The notes below the pieces were generated by a model. The model was not told where the DNA came from, ran no database searches, and worked only from the letters and a program-made list of their open reading frames with translations. A stretch of DNA of 64,000 bases from Candidatus Poribacteria bacterium. Its GTDB lineage: Bacteria > Poribacteria > WGA-4E > WGA-3G. Location of the stretch: assembly GCA_965214095.1 (NCBI GenBank), contig OZ243938.1, positions 96,001-160,000 on the forward strand, given 5' to 3'. How positions within the stretch are numbered: position 1 is the first letter of the stretch; each line of letters starts with the position of its first letter. The position numbers and the translations under genes are program-made. Positions 33,991 through 58,516 of the stretch are shown in pieces.

Positions 33991-34918
33991 TGCAGTAGTG
34001 TTATCAAAGAGACCCGGTGGCAAGGAACTCACGCTGCCGTATCTCATAAAAAGCGTTTCCAATGCAGGCAATTCATCAAAAATACCTTCGGGTAAAGAAG
34101 TAAAATCATTATAACCCAGATCAAGCTTTCTCAATCGGGTGAGTCCATTGAAATCGCCGGCACTCAACGATGTGATTGCGCGTCTGTCGCGTCTGTTTAG
34201 GTCCAAATCTCTGATTTTCGCCAGATCTTCTGGTGTTACATCATCATCAGTTGCTACGCCAGCTGCAGCAACGATAGCATCCCGAACTGCTGGTGTTCGA
34301 CTGCTAATCGGCGGATCAATAATTTCGGGTACATCGGTAACATTTATCGTCACTGTGATGCTGTCAGTACCATTGTTCCCATCAGAGACAGAAATTATGA
34401 GCGCATACAAGGTTTTCGTTTCATAATCCAACGTTGAACTTGTTTTCAGTATACCGTCATCACGACCAATCTCAAACGCATTATGATCCGTGCTGTTATT
34501 ACTACTGAGACTGTAGATTAAGGTGTCACTGGTATCCTGATCTGTCGCTGTGTAAGTGCCGATCTCTCTGCCAATTGCCACAGTCTCAGCAACATCTATG
34601 CTTGTCCTATACCCTGGTGTGAATACTGGAGGATCGTTGTCATTTGTAACGTTAATCGTGATACCAATAGTATCGCTTGCCTCCTCATCGGAGACAATCA
34701 CTGTTATCAAATAACTGGCTTTGGTCTCATAATCAAGCACAATACCGGTTCTGAGTTGTCCTGTGTTTGGAACAATAGTGAACGCGGCAGCATCACTATT
34801 GATACCGATCCGATAGGTTAAGGTATCACCAGTATCCTGATCTGTTGCAGAAACAGGCGTGCCGACATTCGTTCTCACCTGTGTATTCTCAGCAACGTAA
34901 CGCACTGCGGTAGTGCCT

Positions 34919-36120
34919 TCTGTGAACACGGGTGCATTATTCGGTGTTTGCGTACCCTGATCCGTTTCACCGGCGCGTTGAGGTGTTCCATCGTCATTCT
35001 GACCCGTTTCACCGCTGCCTTGATTCGTAGGTTTATCATCGTCTTTATTTACGACGGTCTCATCTTTATCAGATATATTGACGATGACATCAATGCTGGT
35101 GATGTGTGTGCCATCAGAGACAGTTACTCTTACCTTATAAGTCTTATCTGGGTCTAAAGTGACACCTTCTTTAACTCCCAATTCTCCTGTTTCGGGATCA
35201 ATATCAAACAATTCAGCATCGTCACCGCTGAGCGAATAAGTCAACGTATCGCCATCCGGGTCTGTGGCAGTGATGGTTCCCTCTGTTGTTTCTGTTTCCG
35301 CTTCTGTTGTGATGGTGATAGTCGTGGTTGTGCCTTGGGTGAACACAGGTGGGTTTTCCTCAACATCAATAATATTAATGACAACATCAATACTTGCGGT
35401 GCGTTCTCCATCAGAGGCAGTGATGATGACTGCGTAAGAGTTGTTTGTTTCATAATCCAGTGGTGCTTCTGTTTTCAATTGTCCAGTCGTGCTATCAATA
35501 CTAAACAATGCATCGTCAGTGCCAGCAAGGCTATAGGTAAGGGTGTCGTCATCAGGATCCGTGGCAACAACGGCATCCCCGATGTTAGTCCCTGCCGTTG
35601 TATTTTCTGTCACAGAACGTCTGGTGTTTGTGCCTTCTGAGAACACGGGTGTGCGATTTGACTGGGGTGGTGGTTGTGTTTGTGCTGTTTCGTCAATATC
35701 CGTGACGTTTATCGTAACGTCAATCCTATCTGTGACCTTCCCATCTGTCACGGTAATCGTCACCGAATAGATTGATTGTGTTTCGTAATCCAAAGCAATG
35801 CTGGTTTGCAGCTGCCCTGTGTTATTGTCAACACTGAAAGAACCAGCATCTGTACCACCAAGTGTATAAATCAACGTGTCATTGTCGGCATCTGTTGCTG
35901 TAACGGCATCCCCGATGTTTTCACCTATTTCAGTATTCTCTTCGACAGATCGGGTGGTGGTGCTGCCCTCTGTGAACACGGGTGCATTATTCGGTGTTTG
36001 CGTACCCTGATCCGTTTCACCGGCGCGTTGAGGTGTTCCATCGTCATTCTGACCCGTTTCACCGCTGCCTTGATTCGTAGGTTTATCATCGTCTTTATTT
36101 ACGACGGTCTCATCTTTATC
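34919..36120 (-). repeat. Apparently exact 152-bp direct repeat (34919-35070 and 35969-36120) encoding a disordered linker
   Basis: Identical DNA for 'DKDETVVNKDDDKPTNQGSGETGQNDDGTPQRAGETDQGTQTPNNAPVFT', 1050 bp apart. Confidence 0.93.
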
Positions 36121-39100: not shown

Positions 39101-39584
39101 TCGGCAGGACAATATCAAATGGAGCACCTTCCAGGACAACAGCCCTAAACTTCCCTTCTGCGACCTTCTCCAATCCGATAGTAAGTGGCAGCGGATCAAC
39201 CGTATTGCCACCTAATCGTAGCGATGTCAAGGCATCCAGTCCTTCAAAAATACCAACCGGCAGACGTCTGAGTTCGTTGGCATATAGGTTCAGATTTGTC
39301 AACCCTGTCAAGCCTGAGAAATCACCAGTTTGCAGTTCAGAAATAGCTGCATTTCTCAGATTGAGCTCAGTTATTGCAGCCAGATGTGCTTCGGTCAATT
39401 GGTCGGCAGTATTGACACCCGCAGCAGATGTGATAGCATCCCGCACCTGTGCTGTGCGTTCACTTGCAGGGACGACTTCGGCTGAAATACCAAAATTCAT
39501 ACCAATAGGAAAAATAACCAATAAAACGGTCATAACACAATTTTGATTCAAAAGTTGCGTAATCACAAGTAACTCCACTTTCAT

Positions 39585-39838: not shown

Positions 39839-42800
39839 TTACTTTCGTATCAACATCTTCCGCGTAGTCGTGAAATCTCCTGCCTTGAATGTGACAAAAT
39901 AGACTCCTGCAGCTACCTTCTCACCAATACTATTTCTACCATCCCAATAAGCAGCACGGTTCCGATTCATGTAGAAACCTGCTTTTTGATGTCCCAATAC
40001 TAACTTACGTACAACAACCCCACGCATATTGTAGATCGTCAATGTAACATCCGATGCTTTCGCTAACTGATACGGTATCCACGTTTCAGGATTGAACGGG
40101 TTGGGGAAATTGGACAAGAGAACAGTCTTGTCGGGTGGCTGGATGTTGCTGGGTGCAGGAGGAATAGCATCAATCACCGTCAACGGCAAATCATCGGATT
40201 TTGTATAATTGCAGCCAGAAAAGCCGGAGAGCGTTGGTAATGTACTAATATCTACCGTAACAGCCTCGGTTGTACCTGCAGTGCGTGTAACGGTGAACTC
40301 ATCACTTTCCACTTCACCTGCTTCCATGACAATACTTGTGACATCACCTGAGATACTTCCATTCGTAACAGCAACGACTGTAGTTGCTTCCTTGGGTGCT
40401 CCTGCGGGTATTTTTACCTTGAACTTTCCATTTGCTGTCTTTATGAGCGTTACGGGGATAGGGACATTGATATACGTCCCAAAACTAACATTGTTGTGAC
40501 TCAGACCAAGATAGCTCAGGTTGGAGAGAACTGTAAAGAACCCATCCGGTAACCTAAGAATATTGTTATTGAAAAGTTCGAGTCTCCTTAGAGCGGTAAG
40601 TGGTTTAAAAGCATCAAGATTTATATTTGCATTAAAACTATTTCCACTGAGATTAAGACTCTGAAGTTTGGTATTATATTTGAAAATATCAGAATGGAAA
40701 TTGAGTAAGTTGCTCTCACCTAATTTAAGGTCAGTCAAATTAACGAGATCATCAAAAATACCTACCGGTAAATTAGTACTATAGAATGAGAACTCTAAAT
40801 GAACCAAATTTACAAGGTCATTAAAATCACCACTGTTTGGATTCCCCACGCCATGGGCAATGTATGTCAATCTCCTAATAAATGAGAGATGATGATTTAG
40901 CAGGTCATCTCGCCTAAGATTCGGAAATCTATCCTTAAGAGCCCACATAATAGAACCATGAAGAGTAGCACCATCATCACTACCAAATATGATTCTTTGT
41001 GTGCGTTCACTAAGAGGAGGGTCAGGTGGGGTTTCATCTATGTCGTTGACCTCAATTGTGACAGCAAGCGTTGCACTATCATTACTTGAACCACTATCAT
41101 CCGTCACCTTGACGGTTATGGAATATGAAGATTGTTCTTCGTAATCCAGTACAACAGCTATTTTGAGCTGCCCGGTTTCACTGTTAATACTAAACGAATC
41201 CGCATCCGTCCCCTCCAGACTATAGGTCAACGTGTCCTCGTCTGCATCCGTTGCTGTAAAACGACTACCAAGGTTGGCATTTATCCTGTTTTTTTCATCA
41301 ACACTCAAGGTTGTACTGACACCGTCATTGAACACAGGCGGATTATTCGTACCAGGTATAATATTTATGTTTGGACCTTTTATGAGACTATATCCGTAAT
41401 GACCTGAGGGCAGGCTTGGTAGGCTGTCAATAGATGCATTGACTCTACTTGTAGAGCCAGAGTTCCGTGTGGCCGTAAGTGTTTCACTATCTGTGCTACC
41501 TCGTGAAATGGAAACACTTGTTACACTGCTATTAATAGTAGCGTTTGAGACACTTACAGGTACTTCTATTTCAAAAGGTGCCCCAACAGCTACCACGACT
41601 TTGAACTCACCGTCTTGGACTTTCACCGCAGTTATATCAAGTGGCAGTGGATCAACGCTGTTGTTTCTTAGGTCAACTCTGTCAAGACTCGAAAGGTTGA
41701 GAAATAACCCGTCCGGTATAGAACTGAAACTGTTGTTTGATAGGTTAATTTCATCAAGTGAAGTGAGTGTATTAAAAATACCATTAGGTAGACTGCTCAA
41801 ATTGTTCTCGCTGAGATCAATTGACTTGAGCGAAGTGTTGTTATCAAAAATCCCCGCGGGGACACTAGTTAAGTTATTCTCATCGGCTCTAAATGAAGTT
41901 ATTGACGTAAGTTCATTGAAAAGACCAGAAGGAAACGTTGTCAAGCTGTTATTTTCGAATGAAATTGCTGTTACACCGGTAAGATCATCAAAATCTCCAG
42001 TTTGAAGACTCGAAATATTCTTTTGTTTGAAATCGAGTGTGCCAGTAATAGCTGCCAGGTCGTCTGCTGCTATATATGCTGGATCGCTTATACCTGTTAC
42101 CGAGATGAGTTTATCGCGTACTTGTTGTGTGCGTTGATTGACAGGTGTGGATGTCTCCGTAGCGTCAAGGATATTGATGGTTACATCAATAGTATCACTG
42201 TTATCGCTATGACTGCTGTCATCAGTTACCTTGACGGTGACGGAATATGAAGATTCATCTTCAAAATCTAATTCTGCACTGGTTTTGAGCTGCCCGTTTG
42301 TGGTGTCAATGCTAAAGGATGCGGCATCTGTGCCTTCCAGGCTATATGTGAGTATATCAAGATCATCTGCATCTGTTGCGGTTAATGGAGCACCGATATT
42401 TGTACCGGGAGCTGTTATCTCCCTCACTGAAAGGGTGATACTGCTACCATCGTTAAATACTGGGGCATTATATTCAGTCCTAATTAAATTTATATTTGGA
42501 CCTTTCCTCAGCCTATAACCATAATGGTTCCAGGGGAGAGAAGAAAACGATCCCAAACTTACAGTGACATTCCCAGTTGTACCTTCGTCGCGTGTGACAG
42601 TAAATGTCTCGCTATCTGTACTGCCCTGTGAAATGGTTGCACTTGTGGCACCACCAGTGATGGAACCATTGGTGACACTCAGTGCCACTGTGATGTCAGT
42701 CGGTGCACCGGTAACTGCGACGACTTTGAACTGATCCACTGCAATTATTTCAAAAGTTATTTCCAGTGGCATCGGATCAACGGGGTTGCCATCCATATCA

Positions 42801-45800
42801 AGTTTGTTGAGACTGGTAAGACCGACAAATACTTTGTCTGGTATAGACTCGAATTTGTTACCATCTAAATACAGTGTTTCCAGTGAAGTTAGGTTCTCAA
42901 AAATATTTTCAGGTAATGAGGTTATTTTGTTGAGACCTAAGTCAAGTGTTACCAGTGAAGTTAGGTTATCAAAAATACCAGCGGGTAATGTTCCTATATT
43001 GTTTAGTTTTAACTCAAGTTTTGTGAGGGATGTGAGACTGGCAAAGACCCCTGCATCATAACTCTTGATATTCATATTATCCATATCAAGTTCTTTGAGT
43101 GATGTAAGATCATCAAAAATACCAGAAGGTAATGTTCCTATATTGTTGTTAGCCAAGTAAAGCTTTGTCAAACTGGTAAGTCCATCAAAATCTCCAGATT
43201 TTAGTGAACTTATGTCCTCACTATAGAGATTTAGCGTACCTGTTATTCCTGCAAGGTCGTCTGCTGTTATATTCGCTACATTTCTTTTACCAACAAGATC
43301 AGCAATTGCATCTCGTACCTTTCTTGTACGTTGTCTGACAGGTGTGAAACCTTCGTCTACATCGGTAATATTGATGGTGACATCGATTGTGGCACTTGCA
43401 TTACTCAGACCACTATCATCGGTAACTTTGACAGTAACTGAATAGGAATCCTTGGTTTCAAAATTCAATGAAGCACTGGTTTTCAACTGTCCGCTTGTGC
43501 TAACAATACTAAATGATGATGCATCTGTGCCTTCCAAGCTATATGTCAAGGTGTCATCTGTATCAACATCTGAAGCGGAAACAGGATTGCCAATATTGGT
43601 GTTGGTAGGCGTGTTTTCAGCGATTGAACGGGTGACAGGGGCAGTCTCGTCAAATGTAGGTGTGTTGTTAACCGTTTGCGATAAAATTCTGAGAGCAGCC
43701 TCGACCGTTCCCGAAACTTCAGCTGTTCCACCATTACTATCATCGGCTATAACCTTGATGGAGTAGTTTGATTTTGTATCGTCAATGAGTGCTTGTGTGA
43801 CTTTCAGTTGTCCTGAATTATCAATATCGAATTTCGCTGCATCATTACCACTAACACTGTATGTCAAAGTGTCGTTATCAGGGTCAGTTGCAGTGAGTGC
43901 ATCCCCAATACTATCCCCGACGGATACATCGCCAATATCTGCGATTCGGTAGGTGAAACTCGTGACCGAGAATGTTGGTGCGCGGTTCTCAACAACATCT
44001 GTAATATTGATCTCGACATCAATCGTAGCACTGTTATTACTCTCACCACTGTCATCCGTTGCTGTGACGGTTACCGAGTAAGAGGAATCATCTTCAAAGT
44101 CAAGTGCGTCCTTCGTTTTTATCTGTCCTGTGTCGGTATCAATGTCAAATGAAGATCCGTCCGTTCCACCGAGGCTGTATTCCAAGTCATCGCCATCTTC
44201 ATCCGTAGCAGCTACAGGCGTTCCGATGTTTGTATCCGCAACAGTATTCTCAGCGATGGCGCGTGTGACAGGACTTGTTTCGGTGAATGCTGGTGCATCG
44301 TTCTCATCCGAAACATTAATCGTGACATCAATGGAAGCACTGTTATTGCTTTCACCGCTGTCATCTGTGACAGTGACGGTTACCGAATGTGAAGCACTTG
44401 CTTCGTGATTAAGTGCGTCCTTCGTTTTGATCTGTCCAGTGTCAGTATCAATGTTAAATTTAGAACCGTCCGTGCCACCGATGCTGTATTCAAAATCATC
44501 ACCATCCTGATCAGTAGCAGGGAAAGGACTGCCGATGTTGACACCCGCGATAGCATGCTCTCCTATAGAGAATGTGATGGAACCTGTCTGTGTGAATTTC
44601 GGCGCATCATTCGCATCTGTGACATTAATTGTGACAGTAATTTCATCTTCAAGGCTGCCATCCGAAACGTTGACCGTCACCGTATAGGAGTCCTTCGTTT
44701 CAAAGTCTAATTCATCCTTTGTGCGGAGTTGTCCGTTTGTGCTATTGATATTAAACGACGCGGAATTCGTCCCGCCGAGAGTATATTCCAATTCGTCTTC
44801 GTCAGCATCAGAGGCTTCCACAGCAGTCCCAATATCTAAACCAGACCCGGTATTCTCTTCTACTGAACGCGTGGTTTCTGAACCTTCAGCAAACTCAGGG
44901 GCACTATTCTCGACTACATCAGTGACATTGATTGTAACATCTATGGTTGCCTCGCCACCATTGTCATCGGATACAGTTATTTCCACAGAATAAGATTTCT
45001 TTAATTCAAAATCTAATGCTGCATTGGTTCTCAACTGTCCGTTTGTGCTATTGATACTAAACGATGTTTCATCTGTACCACTCAGCGCGTATGTTAATGT
45101 ATCTTCATCCTCATCTGTGGCAGTAACTGCATCACCAATGTCTTCACCAGAACCAGTATTCTCTGCAACTGAACGCGTGGTTTCTGAGCCTTCCTCAAAC
45201 ACAGGGGCACGGTTCTCATCTACATCCCTAACCATAATGGTAATTGCAATACTATCGGATAGCTCACCATCAGACACCTTGAGTGTCACAGAATAGGAGG
45301 ACTTATTCTCATAATCCAATGCTGCCTTCGTTTGAAGTCTCTTTGTCGTACTATTGAAATCAAAGGATGTAGCATCATCACTTTCAAGGCTATAAGTTAA
45401 GGTCGTGTTCGCATCTGGATCCGTTGCAACAAAAGCATGTCCGAAATCAACTCCTGAAGCAGTATTCTCAGCAATGCGACGTATAGTATTTTCGCCATCC
45501 TCAAATACGGGTGCTTCATTGACATTCGACACATTGATTGTAACGGTGATCTCGTCTTCAAGACTACCATCCGATACAGTGACTGTCACCGTATAAGATG
45601 TCTTATTTTCATAATCCAGGGTACCGCTGGTTTTGAGTTGACCTGTTTCATCGTCAATGCTAAACGAAGAAGCATCTGTGCCACTGAGGAGATAAGCAAA
45701 CGTTTCGCTGTCTTCATCTGTTGCAGCGATTGCCTCACCAATATCAGTGTCTTCTGCCGTATTCTCTGGTACAGATCGGGTTGTGTCCTCTCCATCTTCA

Positions 45801-48800
45801 AAAACAGGTGCGATATTTGACGGTGTTTCGTCTAAGTCTCTGACAGATATAGATACTGTAATAGAATCGCTCAAACTACCATCGGTAACAGACACAGTGA
45901 CCGTGTATGAGGCTTTATTTTCAAAATCCAAAGCTGCTTTTGTTTTGAGTTGTCCTGTCCTTTCATCAATAGCGAATGAAGCAGCATCTGTACCACCGAG
46001 GCTATATGTCAGTGTAGTGTTAGCATCTACATCGGTTGCGGTCACTGCGGCACCGATGTTAATGTTGGCTTTAGCGTTTTCTGCAATGGTACGTGTAGTA
46101 CTAACACCACCTATGAACGACGGTGCCTCGTTGACATTTGAAACTTCAATAGTGACATCAATGCTATCACTCCCACCTTGACCATCAGATACGTTCACTG
46201 TCACCGTATACGATGATTTAGTCTCATAATCCAAGGCATCTTTCGTTTGCAGCTGCCCTGTCTCAGAATCAATGTTAAATGCAGCAGCATCTGTGCCACC
46301 AAGACCAAAAGTCAGTGTGTCATCGTCCGCATCCTCCGCAGATACAGGACTTCCTATATTAGTGTCTGCATCTGTGTTCTCAGGAACAGAGACGGTGATG
46401 TCATCTGAAGCAAACTCAGGTGAGTTGTTTGTCGGTGCTTCGTCCACATCCGTGACATTGACTGTTACAGTGATGCTATCACTGCCACCTTCACCATCGG
46501 AGACATTGACTGTTACCGTATATGATAACTTTGTTTCATAGTCAAGTGAGGCACTGGTTCGTATCTGACCTGAACTACTATTGATTGTAAATGAAGATGC
46601 GTCTGTTCCGCTAAGGCTATATGTTAATGTGTCTTCATCGTCATCGGTGGCGGACACAGCACTCCCAATGTCCACACCAGAACCTGTATTTTCTGCAATG
46701 GAACGAGTTGCAGTACTACCTTCCGTAAACTCAGGTGCGGTATTGGCAGGTCTCTCGTCTACATCGGTAACATTGATTGTGACGCTGATGCTGTCGCTGC
46801 CATTCTTGCCATCTGAAACATTTACTTTTACCGTATAAGACGACTTATCTTCATAATCCAAAGCTGCACTTGTTCTTATCTGTCCATTTGTACTATTGAT
46901 ACTAAACGAATCTGCATCCGTGCCACCAAGACTATAGGTTAGTGTGTCTTTGTCGGCATCGGTCGCACCAACTGCACTTCCTATGTCTACACCAGAACCC
47001 GTATTTTCTGCAATGGAAAGTGTAGCGGATTCACCATCTGTGAAGACAGGGGCGTTATTTGGAGGATCATCTTTTACATCTGTTGTTTCATCAACTACTG
47101 CTGTTTCATCTATGTCGGTGATGTTGATTGTGACATCTATAGAGTCTGAAAGACTACCATCAGAAACTGTGAGTGTGACCGAATATGAGCTCTTAGTTTC
47201 ATAATCCAGTGCTGCTGATGTTTGCAACTGTCCTGAAGTACTATTGATACTAAATGAAGATGCGTCAGTTCCACTAAGACTGTATGTCAATGTGTCTTCA
47301 TCATCATCGGTAGCGGACACAGCACTCCCAATGTCTACACCGGAACCCGTATTTTCTGCAATGGATCGAGTTGCAGTGCTACCTTCCGTAAACTCGGGTG
47401 CAGTGTTGGCAGATCTCTCGTCCACATCGGTGACATTGATTGTGACAGTGATACTATCACTGCCTTCATTCCCATCAGAAACATTTACTTTTACCGTATA
47501 AGACGACTTATCTTCATAATCCAAAGCTGCACTTGTTCTTATCTGTCCATTCGTGGTATTGATACTAAACGACGCAGTATCCGTGCCACCGAGACTATAT
47601 GTGAGTGTATCCTCATCTTCATCAGTCGCAGAGACTGCATCACCGATATCCACACCGGAATCTGTATTCTCTGCAACGGTTCGTGTGGTACTACTACCCT
47701 CTGTGAAGACAGGGGCGCAGTTTTCATCTACATCAGTCACATTGATGGCGACTGTGATGCTGTCGGTTAGACTACCATCTGATACTGTTACAGTTACCGA
47801 AAATGATGATTTGGTTTCATAGTCAAGGGCTGCTTTGGTTTTGAATTGACCTGTGTTCGCGTCAATATTAAAAGATGTTGCATCTGTCCCACTCATACTA
47901 TATGTTAGGTCATCATTGTTTGCATCCGTTGCCGAAACAGCATTGCCAATATCAACACCGGCTTCAGTGTTTTCTGGAATGGTGCGCGTCGCAGTTGTGC
48001 CTTCTGTGAACACAGGAGCAACATTAATCTCGCTGAAAACCTCCAATGGTAGTTCAGTAGATTTGGCAAACGCGTACCCAGTATGACCAGTAGGCAGACT
48101 TGGCAAAATACCGATGTCAACAGTGACAGCATCATAGGTGTTAGGCGTACGAATGACGGTTAACGGTTGACTTTCCACACTCCCAGCAAGGATCGTTATT
48201 GTAGTCACATTATCGGCAAGGTTTCCGCTTGTGACAGTTATCGGCAAGACAGTGTCTGATGGGACACCACTCGGTAGGACAGCTTTGATTTGGTTTGTAC
48301 CGACTTTTTGTAGTGATACAGTAAGCGGGAATGGGTCAACTGAATTGCCACTCAAATCCAACGTTGTTAGGGATGGTAGACCTTCAAAGATACCAGCAGG
48401 CAGCCCAGCCAATTGGTTATTGCTCAAGTTGAGGGATGTAAGAGACAGCAATCCTGTGAAATCATCTGATTTGAGTGTTGAAACTGACATACCACTCAGG
48501 TCCAGCGATGTAATTGATGCAAGGTGAACATCCGATACGTTACGGCAATCATCAATACCTGTCAGTGCATCTACAATCGCATCACTCACTTGGAGTGTCC
48601 GATTGCAAACATTAGATTTCGCAAGTATATAACCGAAATGGTTCGCAGGTAAGGATGGCAATGACCCAATACTTACATCTGATGTAGTAGCAGTAAATGC
48701 CGTGCTCTCAAGGCTTCCCTTAGGAATTGTAACAGAGGTAATGCTTGCACCATTGAGTGGCAACACAACATCAAACGGTGCCCCTGTCATAATAACCGCT

Positions 48801-50221: not shown

Positions 50222-50269
50222 TTTTTTGTCCTTTCTTTGTGGAGAAAATCCACCTTTTAGTAATAGAAA

Positions 50270-53200
50270 CTATTTACGTATTAACATTTTCCGAGTAGAA
50301 GTATAATCATCTGCGTTGAAAGTGATAAAATAGATCCCTGCTGCGACCTTCTCACCATTACTGTTTCTACCATCCCAATAAGCTGCCTGTCTTCGATCTT
50401 TGTAAAAACCTGCTTTTTGATGTCCCAACACTAATTTACGAACCACAACACCGCGCGTATTGTAAATCGTCAACGAAACATCCGCGGGCTTGGACAACTG
50501 ATAGGGTATCCACGTCTCTGGATTGAATGGGTTCGGATAATTTGATAGGAGTTGCGTATTGTCAGGTATCTCAATACTGTTGCTTGGTCCAGGAGGAACA
50601 GCAGGGATGACTTCTATCGGTAGACTATCTGTGTCTACTACAAAATTATAACCGTGATTATATATACCGCGCTGAGACTTAACGTCAGTGAGATTAACAG
50701 TAACAGCATCAGTCGTTCCAGCGGTTCGGATTACGTCAATAATACCACTTTCAGATTGACCAACTTTAATCAAAATATCATAAAAATAATCCTCACCGGT
50801 ATCGAATGCACCAGTTCTCTCATCAGGGTCAATATAGCCGTTGGTGACGGTTGGGTGTGGGTGAATATGGAATTTGCTTGGAACACCTACAGGACACACT
50901 GCTTTGAATTGACCATCTGCCACCTTTTCCAATTTGACTTTAAGTGTCAACCCACCACCTTCAAAACTTGTAAGTTTCGTAAGACCGACAAACAATCCAT
51001 CCGGCAAGGTTGACAAATTGTTACCTCCCATGTAAAGATTTGTCAATTTGGTCAAAGAACTAAAAGTATTGGCTGGTAATGAACTAATATTATTACTTGC
51101 GATGTTTAAATATCTAAGGTTGGTGTTGTTCTCGAAAATTCCAGACGGCAATGTAGTTAAATCATTTGATGATAGGTTCAATTGATTCAAATTTGTTAGT
51201 CCGTCAAAAATCCCATCAGGTAATGCACTCAAACCGTTTTGCAGTAAGTTGAGATAGTTAAGTTTGGAATTATTGTCAAACATATCAGCTGGTAACGATG
51301 CTAAATTGTTTATATGAAGACCAAGATGTTTCAGTTCAGAGTTTTTGTCAAATATCCCAGCAGGTAAAGTAGTTAAACCGTTGTAATATATAATTAACTC
51401 TTCCAAATTCGTATTTTTGTCAAATATCCCAGCAGGTAAAGTAGTGAGTTTGTTACCCCACAATTGAATATTTTTAAGAGAAGTGAGTTCATCAAATACA
51501 CCGACTGGCAACGAAGCTAATTGGCTATCGGTTTGGTCTTCATCGTTGTATAAATCCAGATGTTCTAATGCAGAGAGTCCATTAAACATACCACTGGAGA
51601 GGGTAGTGAAATTATTTACACCTAAGTCAAGATATGTTAGATTGGAAAGTTCTGCAAAGATATTATCAGGCAAAGATGTCATACCGTTGAATGGAAGTTC
51701 AAGAGACTCAAGAGCAGTGAGACCATCAAAAATCCCGTCGGGTAACGTTGGCAATGCGTTGAATAAAAGACTAAGCTCCGTCAGACCAGTGAGACCATCA
51801 AAATCACCAGCTTGTAATGCGGTTAATTTTGGCGACCAATTACCCCGCGATATATAACCCCCTATAATGCTAAGTGATGTAATTGCAGCAAGGTGTTCCG
51901 CAGTTACATCGTCAGCGGAATTAACACCATCAACAGCCGCAACAATTGCATCACGCACCCCTGCAGTACGTTCGCTAACAGGTGTGATACCTTCGTCTAC
52001 ATCCGTAACATTGATGGTGACATCTATTGTAGCACTTGCATTACTTACACCACTGTCATCTGTTACCTTAACAGTAACTGAATAGGAATCCTTGTTCTCA
52101 TAATCCAATGGAGCACTGGTTTTCAACTGTCCGCTTGTGGTAACAATACTAAATGATGACGCATCCGTACCTTCCAAGCTATATGTCAATGTGTCGTCTG
52201 TGTCATCATCTGAAGCAGAGACAGGTTCACCAATATCGGTATCGGCAGGGGTATTTTCAGCGATTGAACGGGTGACAGGGGCAGTCTCGTCAAATGTAGG
52301 TGTGTTGTTAACCACTTGCATTGAAATTCTGAGAGCAGCAGTGACCGTTCCCGAAACTTCAGCTTTTCCACCATTACTATCATCGGCTACAACCTTGATG
52401 GAGTAGTTTGATTTTGTATCGTCAATGAGTGCTTGTGTGACTTTCAGTTGTCCTGAATTATCAATATCGAACTTCGCTGCATCATTTCCACTAACACTGT
52501 ATGTCAATGTATCGTTATCAGGGTCAGTTGCAGTGAGTGCATCCCCAATACTATCCCCGACGGATACATCGTTAATATTTGAGATGCGGTAGTCGAAACT
52601 ATTGACCGAGAATGTTGGTGGGCGGTTTTCAGTGACATCCGTGATATTGATGTCGACATCAATCGTAGCACTGTTATTACTCTCACCACTGTCATCTGTT
52701 GCAGTGACGGTTACCGAGTAAGAGGCATCATCTTCAAAGTCAAGTGCGTCCTTCGTCTTTATCTGTCCAGTTTCATCATCAATACTGAATGAATCAGCGT
52801 CCGTGCCACCGAGGCTATATTCCAAGTCATCGCCATCTTCATCCGTAGCAGCTACAGGCGTTCCGATGTTTGTATCCGCAACAGTATTCTCAGCGATGGC
52901 GCGTGTGGCAGGACTTGTTTCGGAGAATGTTGGTGCATCGTTCGCATCCGTAACATTAATCGTGACGTTGATGGAAGCACTGTTATTGCTTTCACCGCTG
53001 TCATCTGTGACAGTGACGGTTACCGAATGTGAAGCACTTGCCTCGTGATTAAGTCCGTCCTTCGTTTTGATCTGTCCAGTGTCGGTATCAATGTCAAATG
53101 AAGAACCGTCCGTGCCACCGATGCTGTATTCAAAATCATCACCATCCTGATCAGTGGCAGGGAAAGGACTGCCGATGTTGACATTCGCAGCAGTATGCTC

Positions 53201-56200
53201 TGCTATAGAGAATGTGATAGGACTTGTCTGCGTGAATTTCGGTGCATCGTTCGCATCGGTGACGTTAATTGTAACAGTGATTTCGTCCTCAAGGCTGCCA
53301 TCGGATACGGTGACCGTCACCGTATAGGAGTCTTTCGTTTCAAAGTCTAATGCATCCTTTGTCCGTAGTTGTCCGCTTGTGCTATTGATACTAAACGCTG
53401 CTGCATTCGTGCCACCGAGCGTATATTCCAATTCGTCTTCGTCAGCATCGGAGGCTTCCACAGCATCCCCGATATCTAACCCTGTCCCGGTATTCTCTGC
53501 AACTGAACGTGTTGCCGTTTCCCCTTCAGAGAATTCTGGTGCGGTATTCTCGTCTACATCGGTGACATTGATTGTAACCTCTATGGTTGCCTCGCCGCCA
53601 TTGTCATCAGAAACAGTAATTTCCACAGAATAAGATTTCTTTTCTTCAAAATCTAACGCTGCATTGGTTCTCAACTGTCCGTTTGTGCTATTGATACTAA
53701 ACGATGTTTCATCTGTGCCACCGAGCGTGTATGTTAGTGTATCTTCATCTGCATCTGTGGCAGTAACCGCGTCCCCGATGTCTTCACCGGAACCAGTATT
53801 TTCTGCAACGGAACGCGTGGTATCCGCGCCTTCTTCGAACACAGGTGCACGGTTCTCATCTACATCCCTAACCATAATAGAAATCTCAATACTAACGGAT
53901 AGTTCACCATCAGATACCTTGAGTGCTACAGAATAGGAGGACGTATCCTCATAATCGAGGGCTGCTTTGGTCTGTAATCTTTTAGTCGTGCTATTGAAAT
54001 CAAACGATTCTGCATCATCACCTTCAAGGGTATATGTTAACGTAGTGTTCTCATCTGGATCCGTTGCAACAAAAGCGCGTCCGAAATCTACACCTGAAGC
54101 CGTATTTTCAGCGACGCGTCGTGTCGTGCTTTCACCATCTTCGAATGCAGGTGCTTCGTTGACGTTTGACACATTGATTGTGACGGTGATCTCGTCTTCA
54201 AGGCTACCATCCGACACGGTGACCGTCACCGTATATGAATTCTTATCTTCATAGTCCAGGGCAGCACTTGTTTTGAGTTGTCCTGTTTCATCGTCAATGC
54301 TGAAAGAAGAAGCATCCGTACCACTGAGTAGATAAGCAAGCGTTTCGCTGTCCTCGTCTGTTGCAGCGATTGCCTCACCAATATCAGTGTCCTCTGCCGT
54401 ATTCTCTGGCACAGATCGGGTTGTGTCCTCTCCGTCTGAGAAGACAGGCGCGATATTTGAAGGTGTCTCGTCTAAATCTCTCACAGATATAGATACTGTA
54501 ATAGAATCGCTCAAACTACCATCGGTAACGGACACAGTGACCGTGTATGAGTCTTTATCTTCAAAATCAAGAGGTGCTTTTGTTTTGAGTTGTCCTGTCT
54601 TTTCATCAATACTAAACGAAACGGAATCCGTACCACCGAGACTATATGTCAGTGTAGTGTTAGCATCTACATCCGTAGCGGACACTGCGGCACCGATGTT
54701 AATGTTGGCTTTAACGTTTTCTGCAATGGAACGCGTCGTGGTTTCCGCACTAAACACTGGTGCCTCATTGACGTTTGACACGTTGATTGTAACCTCTACG
54801 CTATCACTACTTCCCTCACCATCTGAGACATTCACAATCACCGTATATGCGGATTTGGATTCGTAGTTAAGTTCCGATTTTGTTTTCAATTGTGCAGTCT
54901 CAGTATCAATGTCAAATTCTGCGGCATCCGTGCCACCAAGACTATAAGTCAACGTGTCATCGTCATCGTCTGTTGCTGAGACCGGACTACCTATATTAGT
55001 GTCTGCATCTGTGTTCTCAGGAACTGAGACCGTGATGTCATCTGAAGCAAACTCAGGTGAGTTGTTCGTAGGTGCTTCGTCTACATCGGTGAGATTGATT
55101 GTTACAGTGATGCTATCGCTTCCACCTTCACTATCGGAGACATTTACTGTTACCGTATATGATGACTTTGTCTCATAATCAAGTGATGCACTTGTTCTTA
55201 TCTGTCCATTCGTGCTATTGATACTAAATGAAGATGCATCAGTTCCACTAAGACTGTATGTCAATGTGTCTTCATCCTCATCGGTAGCAGACACAGCACT
55301 CCCAATGTCTACACCAGAACCTGTGTTTTCTGCAATGGAACGAGTTGCAGTACTACCTTCCGTAAACTCGGGTGCAGTGTTGGCAGATCTCTTGTCCACA
55401 TCGGAGACATTGATTGTGACAGTGATACTATCACTGCCTTCATTCCCATCAGAAACATTTACTTTTACCGTATAAGACGACTTATCTTCATAATCCAAAG
55501 CTGCACTTGTTCTTATCTGTCCATTGGTACTATTGATACTAAAAGATTCTGCATCTGTACCGCTAAGACTATAGGTTAGTGTGTCTTTATCCGCATCGGT
55601 GGCGGACACAGTACTTCCGATATCTACACCGGAACCCGTATTCTCAGCTATTGAACGTGTGGCAGAGTCACCTTCTGTGAATTCAGGTGCGTTATTTGGA
55701 GGATCATCTTTTACATCTGTTGTTTCATCAACTACTGCTGTTTCATCTATGTCGGTGATGTTAATTGTGACATCTATAGAGTCTGAAAGACTACCATCAG
55801 AAACTGTGAGTGTGACCGAATATGAACTCTTAGTTTCATAATCCAGTGCTGCTGATGTTTGCAACTGTCCTGAAGTACTATTGATACTAAATGAAGATGC
55901 GTCAGTTCCACTAAGACTGTATGTCAATGTGTCTTCATCATCATCGGTAGCGGACACAGCACTCCCAATGTCTACACCGGAATCTGTATTCTCTGCAACG
56001 GTTCGTGTGGTACTACTACCCTCTGTGAAGACAGGGGCGCGGTTTTCATCTACATCAGTCACACTGATGGCGACTGTGATAGTGTCGGTTAGACTACCAT
56101 CTGATACTGTTACAGTTACCGAAAATGATGATTTGGTTTCATAGTCAAGGGCTGCTTTGGTTTTGAATTGACCTGTGTTCGCGTCAATATTAAAAGATGT

Positions 56201-58516
56201 TGCATCTGTCCCACTCATACTATATGTTAGGTCATCACTGTTTGCATCCGTTGCCGAGACTGCACTGCCAATATCAACACCGGCTTCAGTGTTTTCTGGA
56301 ATGGTGCGCGTCGCAGTTGTGCCTTCTGTGAACACAGGAGCAACATTAATCTTGCTGAAAACCTCCAATGGTAGTTCAGGAGATTTGGAAAACGCGTACC
56401 CAGTATGACCAGTAGGCAGACTTGGCAAAATACCGATGTCAACAGTGACAGCATCATAAGTGTTAGGCGTACGAATGACGGTTAGTGGTTGACTTTCCAC
56501 ACTCCCAGCACGGATCGTTATTGTGGTCACATTATCGGCAAGGTTACCACTTGTGACGGTGATCGGTAAGACAATATCTGTGGGTGCACCACTCGGTAGG
56601 ACAGCTATGATTTGGTTTGTACCGATTTTTTGTAATGATACAGTAAACGGAAGTGGATCAACGCTGTTGCCACGCAAATCTAATACCGATAGAGATGTCA
56701 AACCTACAAATATACCATTGGGAAGTCCTGATAATTGGTTATTGCTCAAGTTGAGGGTTGTCAATGACAACAAACCTGAAAAATCATCTGAAGCAAGGTC
56801 GGTTATGGAACTATTATTCAGATCGAGAGATGTAATAGTTGCTAAGTGAAACTCACTAATATTCCGACAGTCTTCTATATTCTCAAAAGCTTCAACAATC
56901 GCATCACTCACTTGTAACGTCCTGTTGCAGACTTTGGATTTGGCAAGGATATAGCCGTAATGGTTCGCTGGAAGTGATGGCAACTCGCCAATGCTAATTT
57001 CAGCACCAGTCGCTGTGAAAGACGCACTTTCAAGAGACCCTTTAGGTATAGTAACTGTTGCAGTATTCCCACCATCAATTGGTAGTAAAATGTCATAAGG
57101 AGCACCAGTCGGTATAATTGCATTGAACGCATTCTCATCAACTTGCTGCAATGAAACAATCAAAGGGAATGGGTCAATCTGGTTACCACCTAAACGTAGA
57201 CTTGTAAGAGAGGTCAAACCATGAAAGATTCCTACCGGTAGGCTGCTCAACATGTTACCGTATAGATTAAGACTGGTTAATCCTGTCAACCCAGAAAAAT
57301 CTCCTGATTTAAGTGATGCAATATTACTATTACGGAAATCCAGACTGGTAATGGCTGCAAGGTGTGCTGCGGTCACATCAGATGCATCGGTCACACCCGA
57401 AATGGCTTCGACAATCGCATCTTGCACTTCTTGCGTGCGTTCACTCACAGGTAGGAAAGTCGAGGTAATAGGTGTATCGTTGACATCAATAACTCTAATA
57501 ATCACAGAAATGGTTGCTGTAAGTTCGTTATCGGAAGCCGTAACGGATACGACGTAGACGCGTTTCGTTTCGTAATCCAAATCTGCCTTCGTTTTAAGCT
57601 GACCAGTTGCACTCTCAATATCAAATGAACCGGCATCTATTCCGCTCAGTGTATATGTCAATTGATCGTTATTGACATCTGATGCTGAGATAGGACTTCC
57701 GATATTTATACCATTATCCGTATTTTCAACGACAGATCGGGTAGTGATTGTTCCGTCAGTAAATGTAGGTGCAGTGTTTTCTTGTACATCAGTTGTATCG
57801 GTAGTATCAGTTGTATCGGTAGTATCAGTAGTTTCTATTACAGCACTGATAACTTCAAGTGGTAACCCCTCAGATGTCGTCAGCGCATAACCGTAATGGT
57901 TTTGTGGCAAAGTGGGTAAAGTGCCAATATTTGCTGAGACAGCCGCCGTAGAGTTTGCTGTGCGGGTAACAGTAACCGCATCACTTTCTGTTGCACCTAT
58001 AGAGATCGTCAGACTTGTTGTACTATCGGAGAGCGATGCATTTGTAACGCTGATTGGGACTTGAATATTAAAAGGTGCACCTGTTGGTGCTATCGCTTTG
58101 AATTGATCCTCACCAACTTTTTCAAGCGTAACGGTGATGGGAATAGGGTCAACGGTGTTGCTTCCTAATCGCAAGCTTGTCAGAGCAGTCAATCCCTCAA
58201 AGATACCATTTGGCAAACTGCTGAGTTCATTGTTGTATAGATTCAGATTAGTTAAACCTGTCAATCCTGCGAAATCACCGGATTTCAGTTCAGTGATGCC
58301 TTTGCCTCTAAGGTCAATACTTGTTATTTCTGCTAAATGTGTGTTGGTTACGTCTGTTGCGGTGTTGACACCTGCAGCAGTCACGATTGCATCGCGTACC
58401 TCTGCTGTGCGATCACTCACATCCGCATACGTTGATACACCCAGAGTCAATAATATCGTCCATAAGACAATAAAAGTCGATTTTGTCCAACTGCTTCTCA
58501 TAGTATTCATTTTCAT
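50270..58516 (-). CDS. Giant cadherin-repeat/LRR secreted protein C (2748 aa) with CTD; close paralogue of B
   Basis: Same N-terminal modules and stalk as B, but a single long C-terminal LRR module. Confidence 0.93.
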   Translation of the reverse strand: MKMNTMRSSWTKSTFIVLWTILLTLGVSTYADVSDRTAEVRDAIVTAAGVNTATDVTNTHLAEITSIDLRGKGITELKSGDFAGLTGLTNLNLYNNELSSLPNGIFEGLTALTSLRLGSNTVDPIPITVTLEKVGEDQFKAIAPTGAPFNIQVPISVTNASLSDSTTSLTISIGATESDAVTVTRTANSTAAVSANIGTLPTLPQNHYGYALTTSEGLPLEVISAVIETTDTTDTTDTTDTTDVQENTAPTFTDGTITTRSVVENTDNGINIGSPISASDVNNDQLTYTLSGIDAGSFDIESATGQLKTKADLDYETKRVYVVSVTASDNELTATISVIIRVIDVNDTPITSTFLPVSERTQEVQDAIVEAISGVTDASDVTAAHLAAITSLDFRNSNIASLKSGDFSGLTGLTSLNLYGNMLSSLPVGIFHGLTSLTSLRLGGNQIDPFPLIVSLQQVDENAFNAIIPTGAPYDILLPIDGGNTATVTIPKGSLESASFTATGAEISIGELPSLPANHYGYILAKSKVCNRTLQVSDAIVEAFENIEDCRNISEFHLATITSLDLNNSSITDLASDDFSGLLSLTTLNLSNNQLSGLPNGIFVGLTSLSVLDLRGNSVDPLPFTVSLQKIGTNQIIAVLPSGAPTDIVLPITVTSGNLADNVTTITIRAGSVESQPLTVIRTPNTYDAVTVDIGILPSLPTGHTGYAFSKSPELPLEVFSKINVAPVFTEGTTATRTIPENTEAGVDIGSAVSATDANSDDLTYSMSGTDATSFNIDANTGQFKTKAALDYETKSSFSVTVTVSDGSLTDTITVAISVTDVDENRAPVFTEGSSTTRTVAENTDSGVDIGSAVSATDDDEDTLTYSLSGTDASSFSINSTSGQLQTSAALDYETKSSYSVTLTVSDGSLSDSIDVTINITDIDETAVVDETTDVKDDPPNNAPEFTEGDSATRSIAENTGSGVDIGSTVSATDADKDTLTYSLSGTDAESFSINSTNGQIRTSAALDYEDKSSYTVKVNVSDGNEGSDSITVTINVSDVDKRSANTAPEFTEGSTATRSIAENTGSGVDIGSAVSATDEDEDTLTYSLSGTDASSFSINSTNGQIRTSASLDYETKSSYTVTVNVSDSEGGSDSITVTINLTDVDEAPTNNSPEFASDDITVSVPENTDADTNIGSPVSATDDDDDTLTYSLGGTDAAEFDIDTETAQLKTKSELNYESKSAYTVIVNVSDGEGSSDSVEVTINVSNVNEAPVFSAETTTRSIAENVKANINIGAAVSATDVDANTTLTYSLGGTDSVSFSIDEKTGQLKTKAPLDFEDKDSYTVTVSVTDGSLSDSITVSISVRDLDETPSNIAPVFSDGEDTTRSVPENTAEDTDIGEAIAATDEDSETLAYLLSGTDASSFSIDDETGQLKTSAALDYEDKNSYTVTVTVSDGSLEDEITVTINVSNVNEAPAFEDGESTTRRVAENTASGVDFGRAFVATDPDENTTLTYTLEGDDAESFDFNSTTKRLQTKAALDYEDTSSYSVALKVSDGELSVSIEISIMVRDVDENRAPVFEEGADTTRSVAENTGSGEDIGDAVTATDADEDTLTYTLGGTDETSFSINSTNGQLRTNAALDFEEKKSYSVEITVSDDNGGEATIEVTINVTDVDENTAPEFSEGETATRSVAENTGTGLDIGDAVEASDADEDELEYTLGGTNAAAFSINSTSGQLRTKDALDFETKDSYTVTVTVSDGSLEDEITVTINVTDANDAPKFTQTSPITFSIAEHTAANVNIGSPFPATDQDGDDFEYSIGGTDGSSFDIDTDTGQIKTKDGLNHEASASHSVTVTVTDDSGESNNSASINVTINVTDANDAPTFSETSPATRAIAENTVADTNIGTPVAATDEDGDDLEYSLGGTDADSFSIDDETGQIKTKDALDFEDDASYSVTVTATDDSGESNNSATIDVDINITDVTENRPPTFSVNSFDYRISNINDVSVGDSIGDALTATDPDNDTLTYSVSGNDAAKFDIDNSGQLKVTQALIDDTKSNYSIKVVADDSNGGKAEVSGTVTAALRISMQVVNNTPTFDETAPVTRSIAENTPADTDIGEPVSASDDDTDDTLTYSLEGTDASSFSIVTTSGQLKTSAPLDYENKDSYSVTVKVTDDSGVSNASATIDVTINVTDVDEGITPVSERTAGVRDAIVAAVDGVNSADDVTAEHLAAITSLSIIGGYISRGNWSPKLTALQAGDFDGLTGLTELSLLFNALPTLPDGIFDGLTALESLELPFNGMTSLPDNIFAELSNLTYLDLGVNNFTTLSSGMFNGLSALEHLDLYNDEDQTDSQLASLPVGVFDELTSLKNIQLWGNKLTTLPAGIFDKNTNLEELIIYYNGLTTLPAGIFDKNSELKHLGLHINNLASLPADMFDNNSKLNYLNLLQNGLSALPDGIFDGLTNLNQLNLSSNDLTTLPSGIFENNTNLRYLNIASNNISSLPANTFSSLTKLTNLYMGGNNLSTLPDGLFVGLTKLTSFEGGGLTLKVKLEKVADGQFKAVCPVGVPSKFHIHPHPTVTNGYIDPDERTGAFDTGEDYFYDILIKVGQSESGIIDVIRTAGTTDAVTVNLTDVKSQRGIYNHGYNFVVDTDSLPIEVIPAVPPGPSNSIEIPDNTQLLSNYPNPFNPETWIPYQLSKPADVSLTIYNTRGVVVRKLVLGHQKAGFYKDRRQAAYWDGRNSNGEKVAAGIYFITFNADDYTSTRKMLIRK

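What the first reader, a model, noticed from the sequence alone, without database searches (positions are those of the whole stretch)
39839..58516. Paralogues B and C share ~2200 aa, then switch abruptly to different heads
Seen: DNA is nearly identical in long patches (e.g. 43621 vs 52261, 49541 vs 57845) up to 'TDVDEG(F/I)TPV' (~43350 vs ~51990). After that, B has three short LRR modules separated by single cadherin repeats, while C has one module of about 12 LRRs. Similarity returns in the CTD, and the signal peptides are unrelated. Inference: cassette-like head replacement at the module cap, with patchy gene conversion along the stalk.
Basis: partly seen in the sequence, partly recalled or inferred. 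Interest (0 to 1): 0.75.

Follow-up and report, generated by a model that had tools for sequence, protein, structure and literature searches.

The report
Shared-stalk, different-tail giant adhesin paralogues
Two neighbouring giant surface-protein genes of a sponge-symbiont bacterium (Poribacteria) keep most of their length alike by repeatedly copying DNA from one another, while their old and different leucine-rich-repeat tail regions stay distinct; this is a clear but not unprecedented case of concerted evolution.

Summary
B (3460 aa) and C (2748 aa) align over about 2160 residues at 80-89% aa identity. Nucleotide identity is patchy, 0.63-0.99 per 150 nt. It falls to about 0.55 right after TDVDEG(F/I)TPV, at the boundary between the last cadherin and the LRR cap. 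Only the C-terminal sorting domain is similar again (79% aa).

The cassette-swap reading is only partly supported. No other copy of either "head" exists in the genome; the best matches are 53-55% and 47% aa. Almost all head-like matches lie inside long family ORFs, so there is no archive of silent cassettes. A second locus (E/F) shows the same break at the same junction. B's head and signal peptide resemble E's, and C's head resembles F's. The heads are therefore old lineages.

What is young is the internal tract from about aa 100 to aa 2295. Its silent-site difference ranges from 0.03 to 0.72, and one patch is D-like. This points to recurrent gene conversion among tandem paralogues that stops where homology ends. 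Three further pairs in two congeneric genomes break near the same junction.

Independent contigs cross both junctions with even depth, so this is not an assembly artefact. If the proteins are anchored as in type IX secretion, the "heads" would be the cell-proximal end.

The parts
50270..58516 (-). Gene C, 2748 aa. Order: signal peptide; three short N-terminal [cap-LRR2-Ig] modules with one cadherin; about 14 cadherin repeats; one long LRR module; T9SS-type CTD.
39839..50221 (-). Gene B, 3460 aa. Same N-terminal layout as C; about 15 cadherin repeats; three [cap-LRR-Ig] modules separated by single cadherins; T9SS-type CTD. It starts 48 nt after C's stop codon.
43337..49935 (-). B side of the homogenised tract (about aa 96-2295). 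Nucleotide identity to C is 0.63-0.99 in patches. 35 of 43 150-nt windows have third-position identity of 0.60 or more (my count from the table).
51977..58236 (-). C side of the same homogenised tract (about aa 94-2180).
43337..43366 (-). B junction motif TDVDEGFTPV: the end of the last (pre-cap subtype) cadherin, immediately before the LRR cap (cap starts at aa 2296).
51977..52006 (-). C junction motif TDVDEGITPV, immediately before the LRR cap (cap starts at aa 2181).
40145..43336 (-). B C-terminal variable region (aa 2296-3359): three LRR-Ig modules with two spacer cadherins of the pre-cap subtype. Closest relative is paralogue E (53-55% aa).
50576..51976 (-). C C-terminal variable region (aa 2181-2647): one module of 11-13 LRRs plus an Ig-like domain. 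Closest relative is paralogue F (47% aa).
39842..40144 (-). B CTD (101 aa), a T9SS type A sorting domain. TIGR04183 scores 39.2 bits against a cut-off of 23.
50273..50575 (-). C CTD (101 aa). TIGR04183 scores 37.7 bits against a cut-off of 23. It is 79% aa identical to B's CTD, but silent-site difference is pS 0.61.
47342..47680 (-). B's extra cadherin repeat (about aa 848-960). It is 88% nt identical to C aa 952-1082 and 86% to B aa 1069-1196, which indicates out-of-register copying within the repeat array.
48326..48625 (-). Patch of B (aa 533-632) that is D-like. B-D nt identity is 0.85-0.90 (third position 0.74-0.82), against 0.65-0.73 for B-C. This is a three-way mosaic.
49541..49718 (-). 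178-nt run identical to C 57845-58022.
60388..64000 (-). Paralogue D, C-terminal 1203 aa within the window (whole gene G000:C1:156388-164019, 2543 aa). It has a C-type single long LRR module. It exchanges sequence with B and C mainly in the N-terminal ~730 aa.
32737..39584 (-). Paralogue A, with a C-type long LRR module. It is split by a frameshift near 38790-38900 into a 299-aa N-terminal ORF and a 2016-aa ORF. It rarely appears among B's nearest matches apart from the CTD.

Best explanation
B and C are two old members of a family of about 20 giant secreted surface proteins in a Candidatus Poribacteria genome.

Each protein has a signal peptide, three short cap-LRR-Ig modules, a long array of Ca-binding cadherin repeats, a C-terminal LRR region of variable design, and a T9SS type A sorting domain.

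The tandem paralogues D, C and B repeatedly copy stretches of DNA from one another by non-reciprocal homologous recombination (gene conversion), including out-of-register copying within the cadherin array. This has overwritten most of the tract from about aa 100 to the last cadherin. The tract is now 86% identical in nucleotides overall, with patches of very different age.

Conversion cannot run into the C-terminal LRR region, because there the two genes have different architectures and no usable homology. Identity therefore collapses exactly at the cadherin/LRR-cap boundary. The C-terminal regions are older lineages: a B-type shared with E, and a C-type shared with F.

Shown here: the mosaic, the boundary, its recurrence, the absence of donor copies, and the relatedness of the ends to E and F.

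Inferred: the recombination mechanism and its direction, the idea that the LRR regions carry different ligand specificities for life inside the sponge host, and the idea that selection also helps keep them apart.
For: 1. Mosaic. Longest identical run is 214 nt against at most 89 in 2000 permutations. Third-position window variance is 79.5 against at most 17.3. Silent-site difference per 100 codons ranges from 0.03 to 0.72.

2. Three-way exchange. B aa 533-632 is D-like.

3. Same break in a second locus. E/F are 0.83-0.99 nt identical up to 120 nt before the cap, 0.73 across it, and 0.33-0.61 after it. B/C behave the same way.

4. Discordance. B-E identity is continuous across the junction (0.48-0.77 before, 0.53-0.79 after). 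C-F is 0.57-0.81 before and 0.52-0.67 after. Head Ig domains group C with F (SH-aLRT 88) and B with E and H (90). B's signal peptide is closest to E's.

5. Silent sites. B-C stalk pS is 0.33 and E-F stalk 0.14. B-C head is 0.69, B-E head 0.67, C-F head 0.70 and B-C CTD 0.61.

6. No donor. Best other copies are 47-55% aa. 842 of 857 head-like hits lie inside 28 long ORFs. No protein among the best 120 of 1582 database hits exceeds 51% identity to C's head. The best hit in 30 related genomes is 46-52%.

7. Recurrence. Pairs g3a/g3d, g3a/g3b (G003) and g7a/g7b (G007) lose identity within about 100 residues of one partner's cap.

8. Assembly. Contigs from runs X4 and X5 cross both junctions with 0 differences and even depth. 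No alternative stalk-head joint was reported.
Against: Direction cannot be proved from one genome. A long conversion of the stalk and a swap of the 3' region produce the same product.

Gene order differs between the loci: C lies upstream of B, but E lies upstream of F. The two loci are therefore not a simple segmental duplicate.

C's signal peptide is not clearly F-like (score 30).

In g7a/g7b the signal peptide is shared (0.96). That fits duplication followed by a 3' change equally well.

The pre-cap cadherin is unusually conserved between loci (0.69-0.81 nt against about 0.6 elsewhere). Together with the CTD it could flank a cassette.

The Ig tree is short and mostly unresolved: 25 of 42 inner branches are below 80.

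Runs X4 and X5 may be the sample the genome was assembled from. Contigs also drop rare variants.
Confidence: 0.7

Rival explanations
1. Cassette-like replacement. A stalk was duplicated, and a different C-terminal LRR region was recombined onto it by crossovers in the conserved pre-cap cadherin and in the CTD. Conversion along the stalk came later.
For: The break is sharp and sits at a domain boundary. It recurs at or near the same junction in 5 of 5 pairs examined. The pre-cap cadherin is a conserved subtype that also serves as the spacer inside B- and E-type tails. The repeated unit is therefore [pre-cap cadherin + cap-LRR-Ig]. The variable region is flanked downstream by a conserved CTD. 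g7a/g7b share even the signal peptide.
Against: There is no donor or silent copy. B and C also differ at the 5' end. B is E-like at both ends. B-C CTD silent sites are nearly saturated, so there was no recent crossover there. No alternative joints appeared in the laid runs.
Confidence: 0.2
2. A recent whole-gene tandem duplication was followed by very fast divergence of the C-terminal region under positive selection.
For: The genes are adjacent, 48 nt apart. dN in the heads is higher than in the stalk: 0.56 against 0.08.
Against: The two tails differ in architecture (three modules with spacer cadherins against one long module), not just in residues. Their silent sites are saturated (pS 0.69) while the stalk averages 0.33. 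Each tail has a closer relative at another locus. dN/dS in the heads is 0.22-0.29, not above 1.
Confidence: 0.04
3. Assembly artefact. Collapsed or chimeric repeats create the identical patches or the junctions.
For: Repeats of 6.5 kb at 86% identity are hard to assemble. Short contigs break at the identical patches, so the phase between patches is not checked.
Against: Contigs of 3915 nt and 868 nt cross both junctions with 0 differences. Unique parts have even depth. Roughly double or higher depth was seen at the few stalk positions for which table 3 gives a figure. The B-versus-C identity profile is unchanged by any phase switch between the two copies. The same pattern appears at a second locus and in two other genomes. 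The chromosome is a single 5.2-Mb contig.
Confidence: 0.03

Closest known systems
Paralogous adhesin genes homogenised or shuffled by ectopic recombination: Helicobacter pylori babA/babB/babC and yeast FLO genes
   Same: These are surface adhesin paralogues within one genome that exchange segments non-reciprocally. The result is chimeras in which part of the gene is nearly identical and the specificity-bearing part stays distinct.
   Different: Here the genes are 8-10 kb, tandem, and built from cadherin and LRR modules in an uncultivated sponge symbiont. The exchanged part is the long repetitive middle. No switching within a population was seen. Basis: the bab and FLO biology is recalled. PMC4552749, PMC5483490 and PMC3512402 were seen only as search listings with the start of the abstract.
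Eukaryote-like repeat proteins of Poribacteria (Kamke et al. 2014, PMC3909097)
   Same: That paper reports LRR, cadherin and Ig-like domain genes with signal peptides and the TIGR04183 C-terminal sorting domain in poribacterial single-cell genomes (passages read).
   Different: In the passages I read, the paper lists domain counts only. It does not describe the giant tandem paralogues, their module grammar or their concerted evolution. It reports that no Por secretion structural genes were found. Here distant PorU-, PorV- and SprA-like ORFs were found, all below the curated cut-offs.
Internalins of Listeria (cap - LRR - Ig-like inter-repeat domain)
   Same: The predicted module has a helical cap, a parallel-strand LRR solenoid and a following beta-sandwich (pLDDT 96). 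Foldseek aligns the InlB internalin domain over 287-310 columns.
   Different: TM-score is only 0.43-0.44 and rmsd 11-12 A. The LRRs have a 24-residue spacing. The best structural matches are to VLR/repebody, LRRTM2 and Nogo-receptor LRRs (Z 18-21). The modules are strung many times along one protein, with cadherins between them.
Large T9SS-secreted adhesins of Bacteroidota (for example SprB of Flavobacterium johnsoniae; recalled)
   Same: These are giant repetitive surface proteins that end in a C-terminal sorting domain.
   Different: The phylum is different (Poribacteria) and the machinery is found only as distant matches. Domain content differs (cadherin + LRR). There is no evidence of gliding.
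Polymorphic toxins (CdiA-CT, Rhs) with a conserved body, a sharp demarcation motif and a variable tip
   Same: There is a long conserved body, then an abrupt switch after a short conserved motif.
   Different: The variable part here is made of LRR, cadherin and Ig binding modules and is followed by a conserved CTD. Pfam finds no toxin domain. No immunity-like small gene is present; the next gene, 48 nt downstream, is the paralogue itself. There are no orphan tips.

Membership tests
Cadherin-repeat proteins (Pfam PF00028) | Repeats score above Pfam's gathering threshold | tested here: met
   B scores 643.9 bits in 18 stretches, C 534.9 bits in 15, A 343.2 bits in 10; cut-off 28.8.
Cadherin-repeat proteins (Pfam PF00028) | Ca-binding linker motifs (xEx, DxD, LDRE-like, DxNDNxPxF-like; the motif names are recalled) | tested here: met
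   the consensus of 235 family repeats is NEAPVF...VAENT...ATDADNDTLTYSL...LDYE...VTDVNE.
T9SS type A cargo | C-terminal sorting domain TIGR04183 above its cut-off | tested here: met
   39.2 bits (B) and 37.7 bits (C) against a cut-off of 23. Pfam Por_Secre_tail alone was below its cut-off (18.6-24.9 against 27). FlgD_ig was above its cut-off.
T9SS type A cargo | The genome encodes the T9SS machinery (SprA/Sov translocon, PorV, PorU) | tested here: inconclusive
   SprA_N Pfam gave no hit, but the controls did not ring either. PorU-like: 3 ORFs at 252-284 bits against a cut-off of 420. PorV-like: 97.5 bits against 250. SprA-like: a 2196-aa ORF with five collinear pieces, best 67.9 bits against 200.
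T9SS type A cargo | The CTD is cleaved and the protein is anchored to, or released from, the outer membrane | not testable with these tools
   This needs proteomics or microscopy.
Internalin-type domain (cap + LRR + Ig-like IR) | Three-part fold | tested here: inconclusive
   The model has helices at 5-15 and 25-29, seven short parallel strands, and a beta-sandwich at 189-285. InlB chains align over 287-310 columns but with TM 0.43-0.44 and rmsd 11-12 A. The VIA second look ranks LRR-only proteins on top. The Ig part was not searched on its own.
Internalin-type domain (cap + LRR + Ig-like IR) | 22-residue LRR period (recalled) | tested here: not met
   LRR motif starts are spaced by 24 residues.
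Cassette-based antigenic variation (one expression site plus silent donor copies) | Silent, promoterless partial copies of the variable part | tested here: not met
   842 of 857 head-like hits lie inside 28 long ORFs. The other 15 lie at A's frameshift or at the 5' end of paralogue Q; no copy is above 55% aa.
Concerted evolution by gene conversion among paralogues | Within-locus identity exceeds between-lineage identity over part of the gene only | tested here: met
   B/C and E/F are 0.77-0.99 before the cap (0.70-0.73 in the window that spans it), while B/E and C/F are 0.48-0.81 before it. The order is reversed after the cap.
Concerted evolution by gene conversion among paralogues | Clustered (over-dispersed) silent differences, that is, mosaic tracts | tested here: met
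   permutation tests; pS 0.03-0.72.
Polymorphic toxin systems (CdiA/Rhs-like) | Variable C-terminal toxin domain with an adjacent immunity gene | tested here: not met
   Searches find only LRR families in the variable regions. One search shows that the next gene starts 48 nt downstream and is the paralogue.

The most novel reading that the evidence does not exclude
The family could be a combinatorial repertoire. On this reading, the unit [pre-cap cadherin + cap-LRR-Ig] is flanked by the conserved pre-cap cadherin on one side and the conserved CTD on the other. It would be a true exchangeable specificity cassette. Recombination at the cap junction would reassort VLR-like LRR binding modules onto a common chassis within symbiont populations. 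This would be a bacterial counterpart of LRR-cassette diversification, tuned to recognition by or of the sponge host.
Probability: 0.12. Interest if true: 0.75.

Novelty: new member of a known kind. Interest (0 to 1): 0.4.

Why it matters
Poribacteria are dominant, uncultivated sponge symbionts. Their LRR and cadherin "eukaryote-like" proteins are the main candidates for contact with the host.

This locus shows how that repertoire is organised and maintained. About 20 giant genes lie in a few tandem clusters. They share a common chassis that recombination keeps uniform. They carry a small set of old, distinct C-terminal LRR designs that are kept apart.

This gives concrete targets for binding studies, namely the B-type and C-type LRR regions. 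It also gives a clear caution for annotation and assembly of such genomes.

The phenomenon itself, concerted evolution of adhesin paralogues, is well known elsewhere.

Tried and rejected
1. Silent cassettes. The genome-wide tblastn with the four head pieces found none.

2. Strain-level copies of C's head on another stalk. The database search lists nothing above 51% identity among its best 120 hits, with the lowest listed score at 709 bits. The ranking favours proteins with many LRRs, and the query itself was not listed, so this is a weak negative. B's head was not searched in that database.

3. Orthologues in 30 related genomes. 20 of them have matches, but none above 52% identity.

4. Tree of all Ig-like domains. 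It is mostly unresolved (25 of 42 inner branches under 80) and was used only for the C+F and B+E+H groupings.

5. The 374-aa cadherin ORF between D and C (59233-60357). I considered it as a possible silent fragment. It is a divergent small secreted cadherin protein, 33-39% identical to family repeats, and carries no head.

6. NCBIfam hits of the LRR regions to XopL, XopAC, XopAE, SlrP and LIC_11051. All are far below the cut-offs (30-77 bits against 450-1113) and reflect generic LRR likeness only.

7. SprA_N Pfam search. Neither the genome nor the controls gave a hit, so it is uninformative.

8. Runs X1 and X3 (other studies). They hold 97-99% fragments, including parts of B's tail. Two low-depth joints (52270/56320 in X1, 45475/44284 in X3) were not followed up and may come from paralogues or relatives.

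9. Literature. Searches for Poribacteria with cadherin/LRR, type IX secretion or gene conversion found no description of this locus type.

10. Earlier notes of this scan. Nothing was on record near this place.
Full report
**What is there.** The window is G000:C1:96001-160000 of a 5.2-Mb chromosome with 41% G+C. Its relatives are Candidatus Poribacteria MAGs, which are sponge symbionts. Four large genes lie head to tail on the minus strand:
- D: 60388 to beyond the window, 2543 aa in the genome.
- C: 50270-58516, 2748 aa.
- B: 39839-50221, 3460 aa.
- A: 32737-39584, split by a frameshift.

B starts 48 nt after C's stop codon.

Pfam finds Cadherin, LRR_8 and related LRR families, Big_9 and FlgD_ig in all of them. 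The last 101 residues pass the curated cut-off of TIGR04183, the T9SS type A sorting domain.

I built profiles from the family itself. They give this grammar:
- a signal peptide;
- [cap-LRR2-Ig] cadherin [cap-LRR2-Ig][cap-LRR2-Ig];
- 12-19 cadherins;
- a C-terminal LRR region;
- the CTD.

The C-terminal LRR region comes in two designs. One is a single long module of 11-14 LRRs (A, C, D, F, K, N). The other is several shorter modules (B, E, H); in B and E they are separated by single cadherins, in H they follow one another directly.

The cadherin consensus keeps the Ca-binding linker motifs. A model of B's first C-terminal module has mean pLDDT 96.1 from a 33-row alignment. It shows a helical cap, an LRR solenoid with 24-residue spacing, and a beta-sandwich. 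The best structural matches are VLR/repebody, LRRTM2 and Nogo-receptor LRRs. The InlB internalin domain aligns over the full length, but loosely.

**Checking the observation.** Every element is confirmed.
- B 36-2310 aligns with C 33-2195 at 80-89% aa identity.
- The first 32 residues are unrelated (15.6% identity).
- After TDVDEG(F/I)TPV (43337-43366 and 51977-52006) identity falls to 33-55% in fragments.
- The CTD is 79% identical.

Nucleotide identity in 150-nt windows runs from 0.63 to 0.99 along the shared part and 0.49-0.57 beyond it. The patchiness is far beyond chance. The longest identical run is 214 nt, against at most 89 in 2000 permutations. The variance of third-position mismatches per window is 79.5, against at most 17.3. 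Silent-site difference per 100 codons ranges from 0.03 to 0.72.

There is a breakpoint. The patches are not collapse artefacts. In runs X4 and X5, contigs of 3915 nt and 868 nt cross the two junctions with no differences. Depth of the unique parts is even, and no alternative joint between stalk and tail was listed. X4 and X5 belong to one study and may be the source sample. Contigs cannot phase successive patches, but the B-versus-C identity profile does not depend on phase.

**What it is.** The genome holds 69 ORFs with this CTD, and about 20 of them are giant cadherin/LRR genes in a few clusters.

Neither C-terminal region has a close copy anywhere else. The best matches are 53-55% aa for B's modules and 47% aa for C's. 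Of 857 head-like matches, 842 lie inside 28 long ORFs. The other 15 lie at A's frameshift or at the 5' end of one paralogue. There is therefore no store of silent cassettes.

The best matches point to a second locus near 3.02-3.05 Mb. There, E (4298 aa, B-type with four modules) and F (C-type) repeat the whole pattern. F 1-1860 matches E 843-2687 at 87-100% aa. The similarity then ends at the same cadherin/cap boundary and returns in the CTD at 88%.

I measured nucleotide identity in 90-nt steps relative to the start of the cap.

| Pair | Up to -120 nt | Across the junction | After the cap |
|---|---|---|---|
| B/C | 0.77-0.99 | 0.70 | 0.39-0.60 |
| E/F | 0.83-0.99 | 0.73 | 0.33-0.61 |
| B/E | 0.48-0.77 (before) | continuous | 0.53-0.79 |
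| C/F | 0.57-0.81 (before) | continuous | 0.52-0.67 |

So each tail has its true relative at the other locus, while each stalk resembles its neighbour.

Other observations point the same way:
- B's signal peptide is most like E's (score 68, against 24 with C).
- Silent sites are saturated in the tails (pS 0.67-0.70) and nearly so in the B-C CTD (0.61). The B-C stalk is 0.33 and the E-F stalk 0.14. The CTD similarity is therefore purifying selection, not recent exchange.
- Within the stalk, one patch of B (aa 533-632) is D-like rather than C-like.
- B's extra cadherin is an out-of-register copy of a later repeat.

**Generality.** In two other species of the same genus, tandem paralogues behave alike.
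- g3a/g3d are 0.97-1.00 identical over most of the tract (four windows are lower, 0.77-0.91) up to the window that holds the cap (0.88), and then 0.53-0.65.
- g3a/g3b are 0.69-0.99 in patches up to about aa 2430, about 100 residues before g3a's cap at 2529.
- g7a/g7b are 0.69-1.00 in patches up to g7a's cap at 1923.

That makes five of five pairs examined. C's tail itself has no close orthologue. The best match in 30 related genomes is 46-52%, with matches in 20 of the 30. The best in the large protein collection is 51%.

**Most likely mechanism.** B and C are old family members. Recurrent non-reciprocal recombination among the tandem copies, also involving D, has overwritten most of the tract between about aa 100 and the last cadherin. 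I count 35 of 43 windows with third-position identity of at least 0.60 in the table. The tails and the between-locus comparisons show about 0.3-0.5. Conversion stops at the cap because homology stops there. Selection for distinct binding regions may reinforce this.

The alternative is that a tail was recombined onto a duplicated stalk. One genome cannot exclude this for any single event. It is helped by the conserved pre-cap cadherin, which also forms the spacers inside B- and E-type tails. But it needs donors that are not there, it does not explain the different 5' ends, and it does not explain the many tract ages.

**Function (inferred).** These are secreted, probably surface-held, Ca-stiffened rods carrying LRR binding modules at both ends. 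They fit the eukaryote-like proteins long suspected to mediate contact between Poribacteria and the sponge (PMC3909097, passages read).

The genome has only distant PorU-, PorV- and SprA-like ORFs, all below the curated cut-offs (one search was uninformative). The export route is therefore T9SS-like but unproven. If anchoring works as in known T9SS (established knowledge, recalled), the variable region is next to the cell and the shared N-terminal triple module is the distal tip. "Head" is then a misnomer.

**Comparison and novelty.** Concerted evolution with chimeric adhesin paralogues is known from the H. pylori bab genes and the yeast FLO genes (recalled; the papers were seen only as listings). 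This case is a new and unusually clean member of that kind, in a new protein architecture and in an uncultivated symbiont phylum. Searches of the held literature found no description of it. It is not a polymorphic-toxin system and not a silent-cassette variation system; the defining features of both were tested and not met.

**Verdict.** Interest is moderate.

Noticed in passing
window 39586-39790 (between genes B and A): Three copies of a 22-nt palindromic element (a REP-like hairpin). It has 246 exact copies in the chromosome. Contig depth here is about 50 times that of the flanks, with many loose ends (15138 against 292 in X4).
   Followed up: partly
window about 38790-38900: Gene A changes reading frame inside its first stalk cadherin. 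A 299-aa N-terminal ORF (38685-39584) and the 2016-aa main ORF overlap. This is either a pseudogene or a single-base assembly error.
   Followed up: partly
G000:C1:3030911-3031843 (locus L095): Paralogue F is interrupted by a 933-nt insertion element. The element has two overlapping transposase-like ORFs (154 and 175 aa) on the opposite strand. There are 8 identical copies and one 97% copy in the chromosome. F's N-terminal 888-aa piece lies upstream. I think it looks like an IS5-family element, but that is from recall and was not tested.
   Followed up: partly
window 59233-60357: A small (374 aa) secreted protein with three divergent cadherin repeats and no CTD lies between D and C. It is only 33-39% identical to repeats of the family.
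   Followed up: partly
window 49466-49528 (B) and 57788-57832 (C): A (TTD)n run of 7 units in B and 5 in C lies after the first N-terminal module. It is a short coding tandem repeat that differs in length between the paralogues.
   Followed up: no
window 27716-30811: A 1031-aa ORF on the plus strand has a dockerin type I domain and the same kind of CTD, 63% identical to B's.
   Followed up: no
G000 contig C2 (32066 bases): Its G+C content is 0.641, against 0.411 for the chromosome. It may be a foreign contig binned into this genome.
   Followed up: no
G000:C1:2636073-2642528, 2779829-2786311 and near 3093005-3097372: Three large ORFs (1752-2161 aa) match the PorU sortase model at 252-284 bits, below the 420 cut-off. 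All three also match the part of that model that corresponds to the CTD; two of them were also found as CTD-bearing ORFs.
   Followed up: no
window 52270/56320 (run X1) and 45475/44284 (run X3): Low-depth contigs from other studies join distant points of the cadherin arrays, with 11 and 26 extra letters between them. They may be stalk-length variants, or they may come from paralogues or relatives.
   Followed up: no
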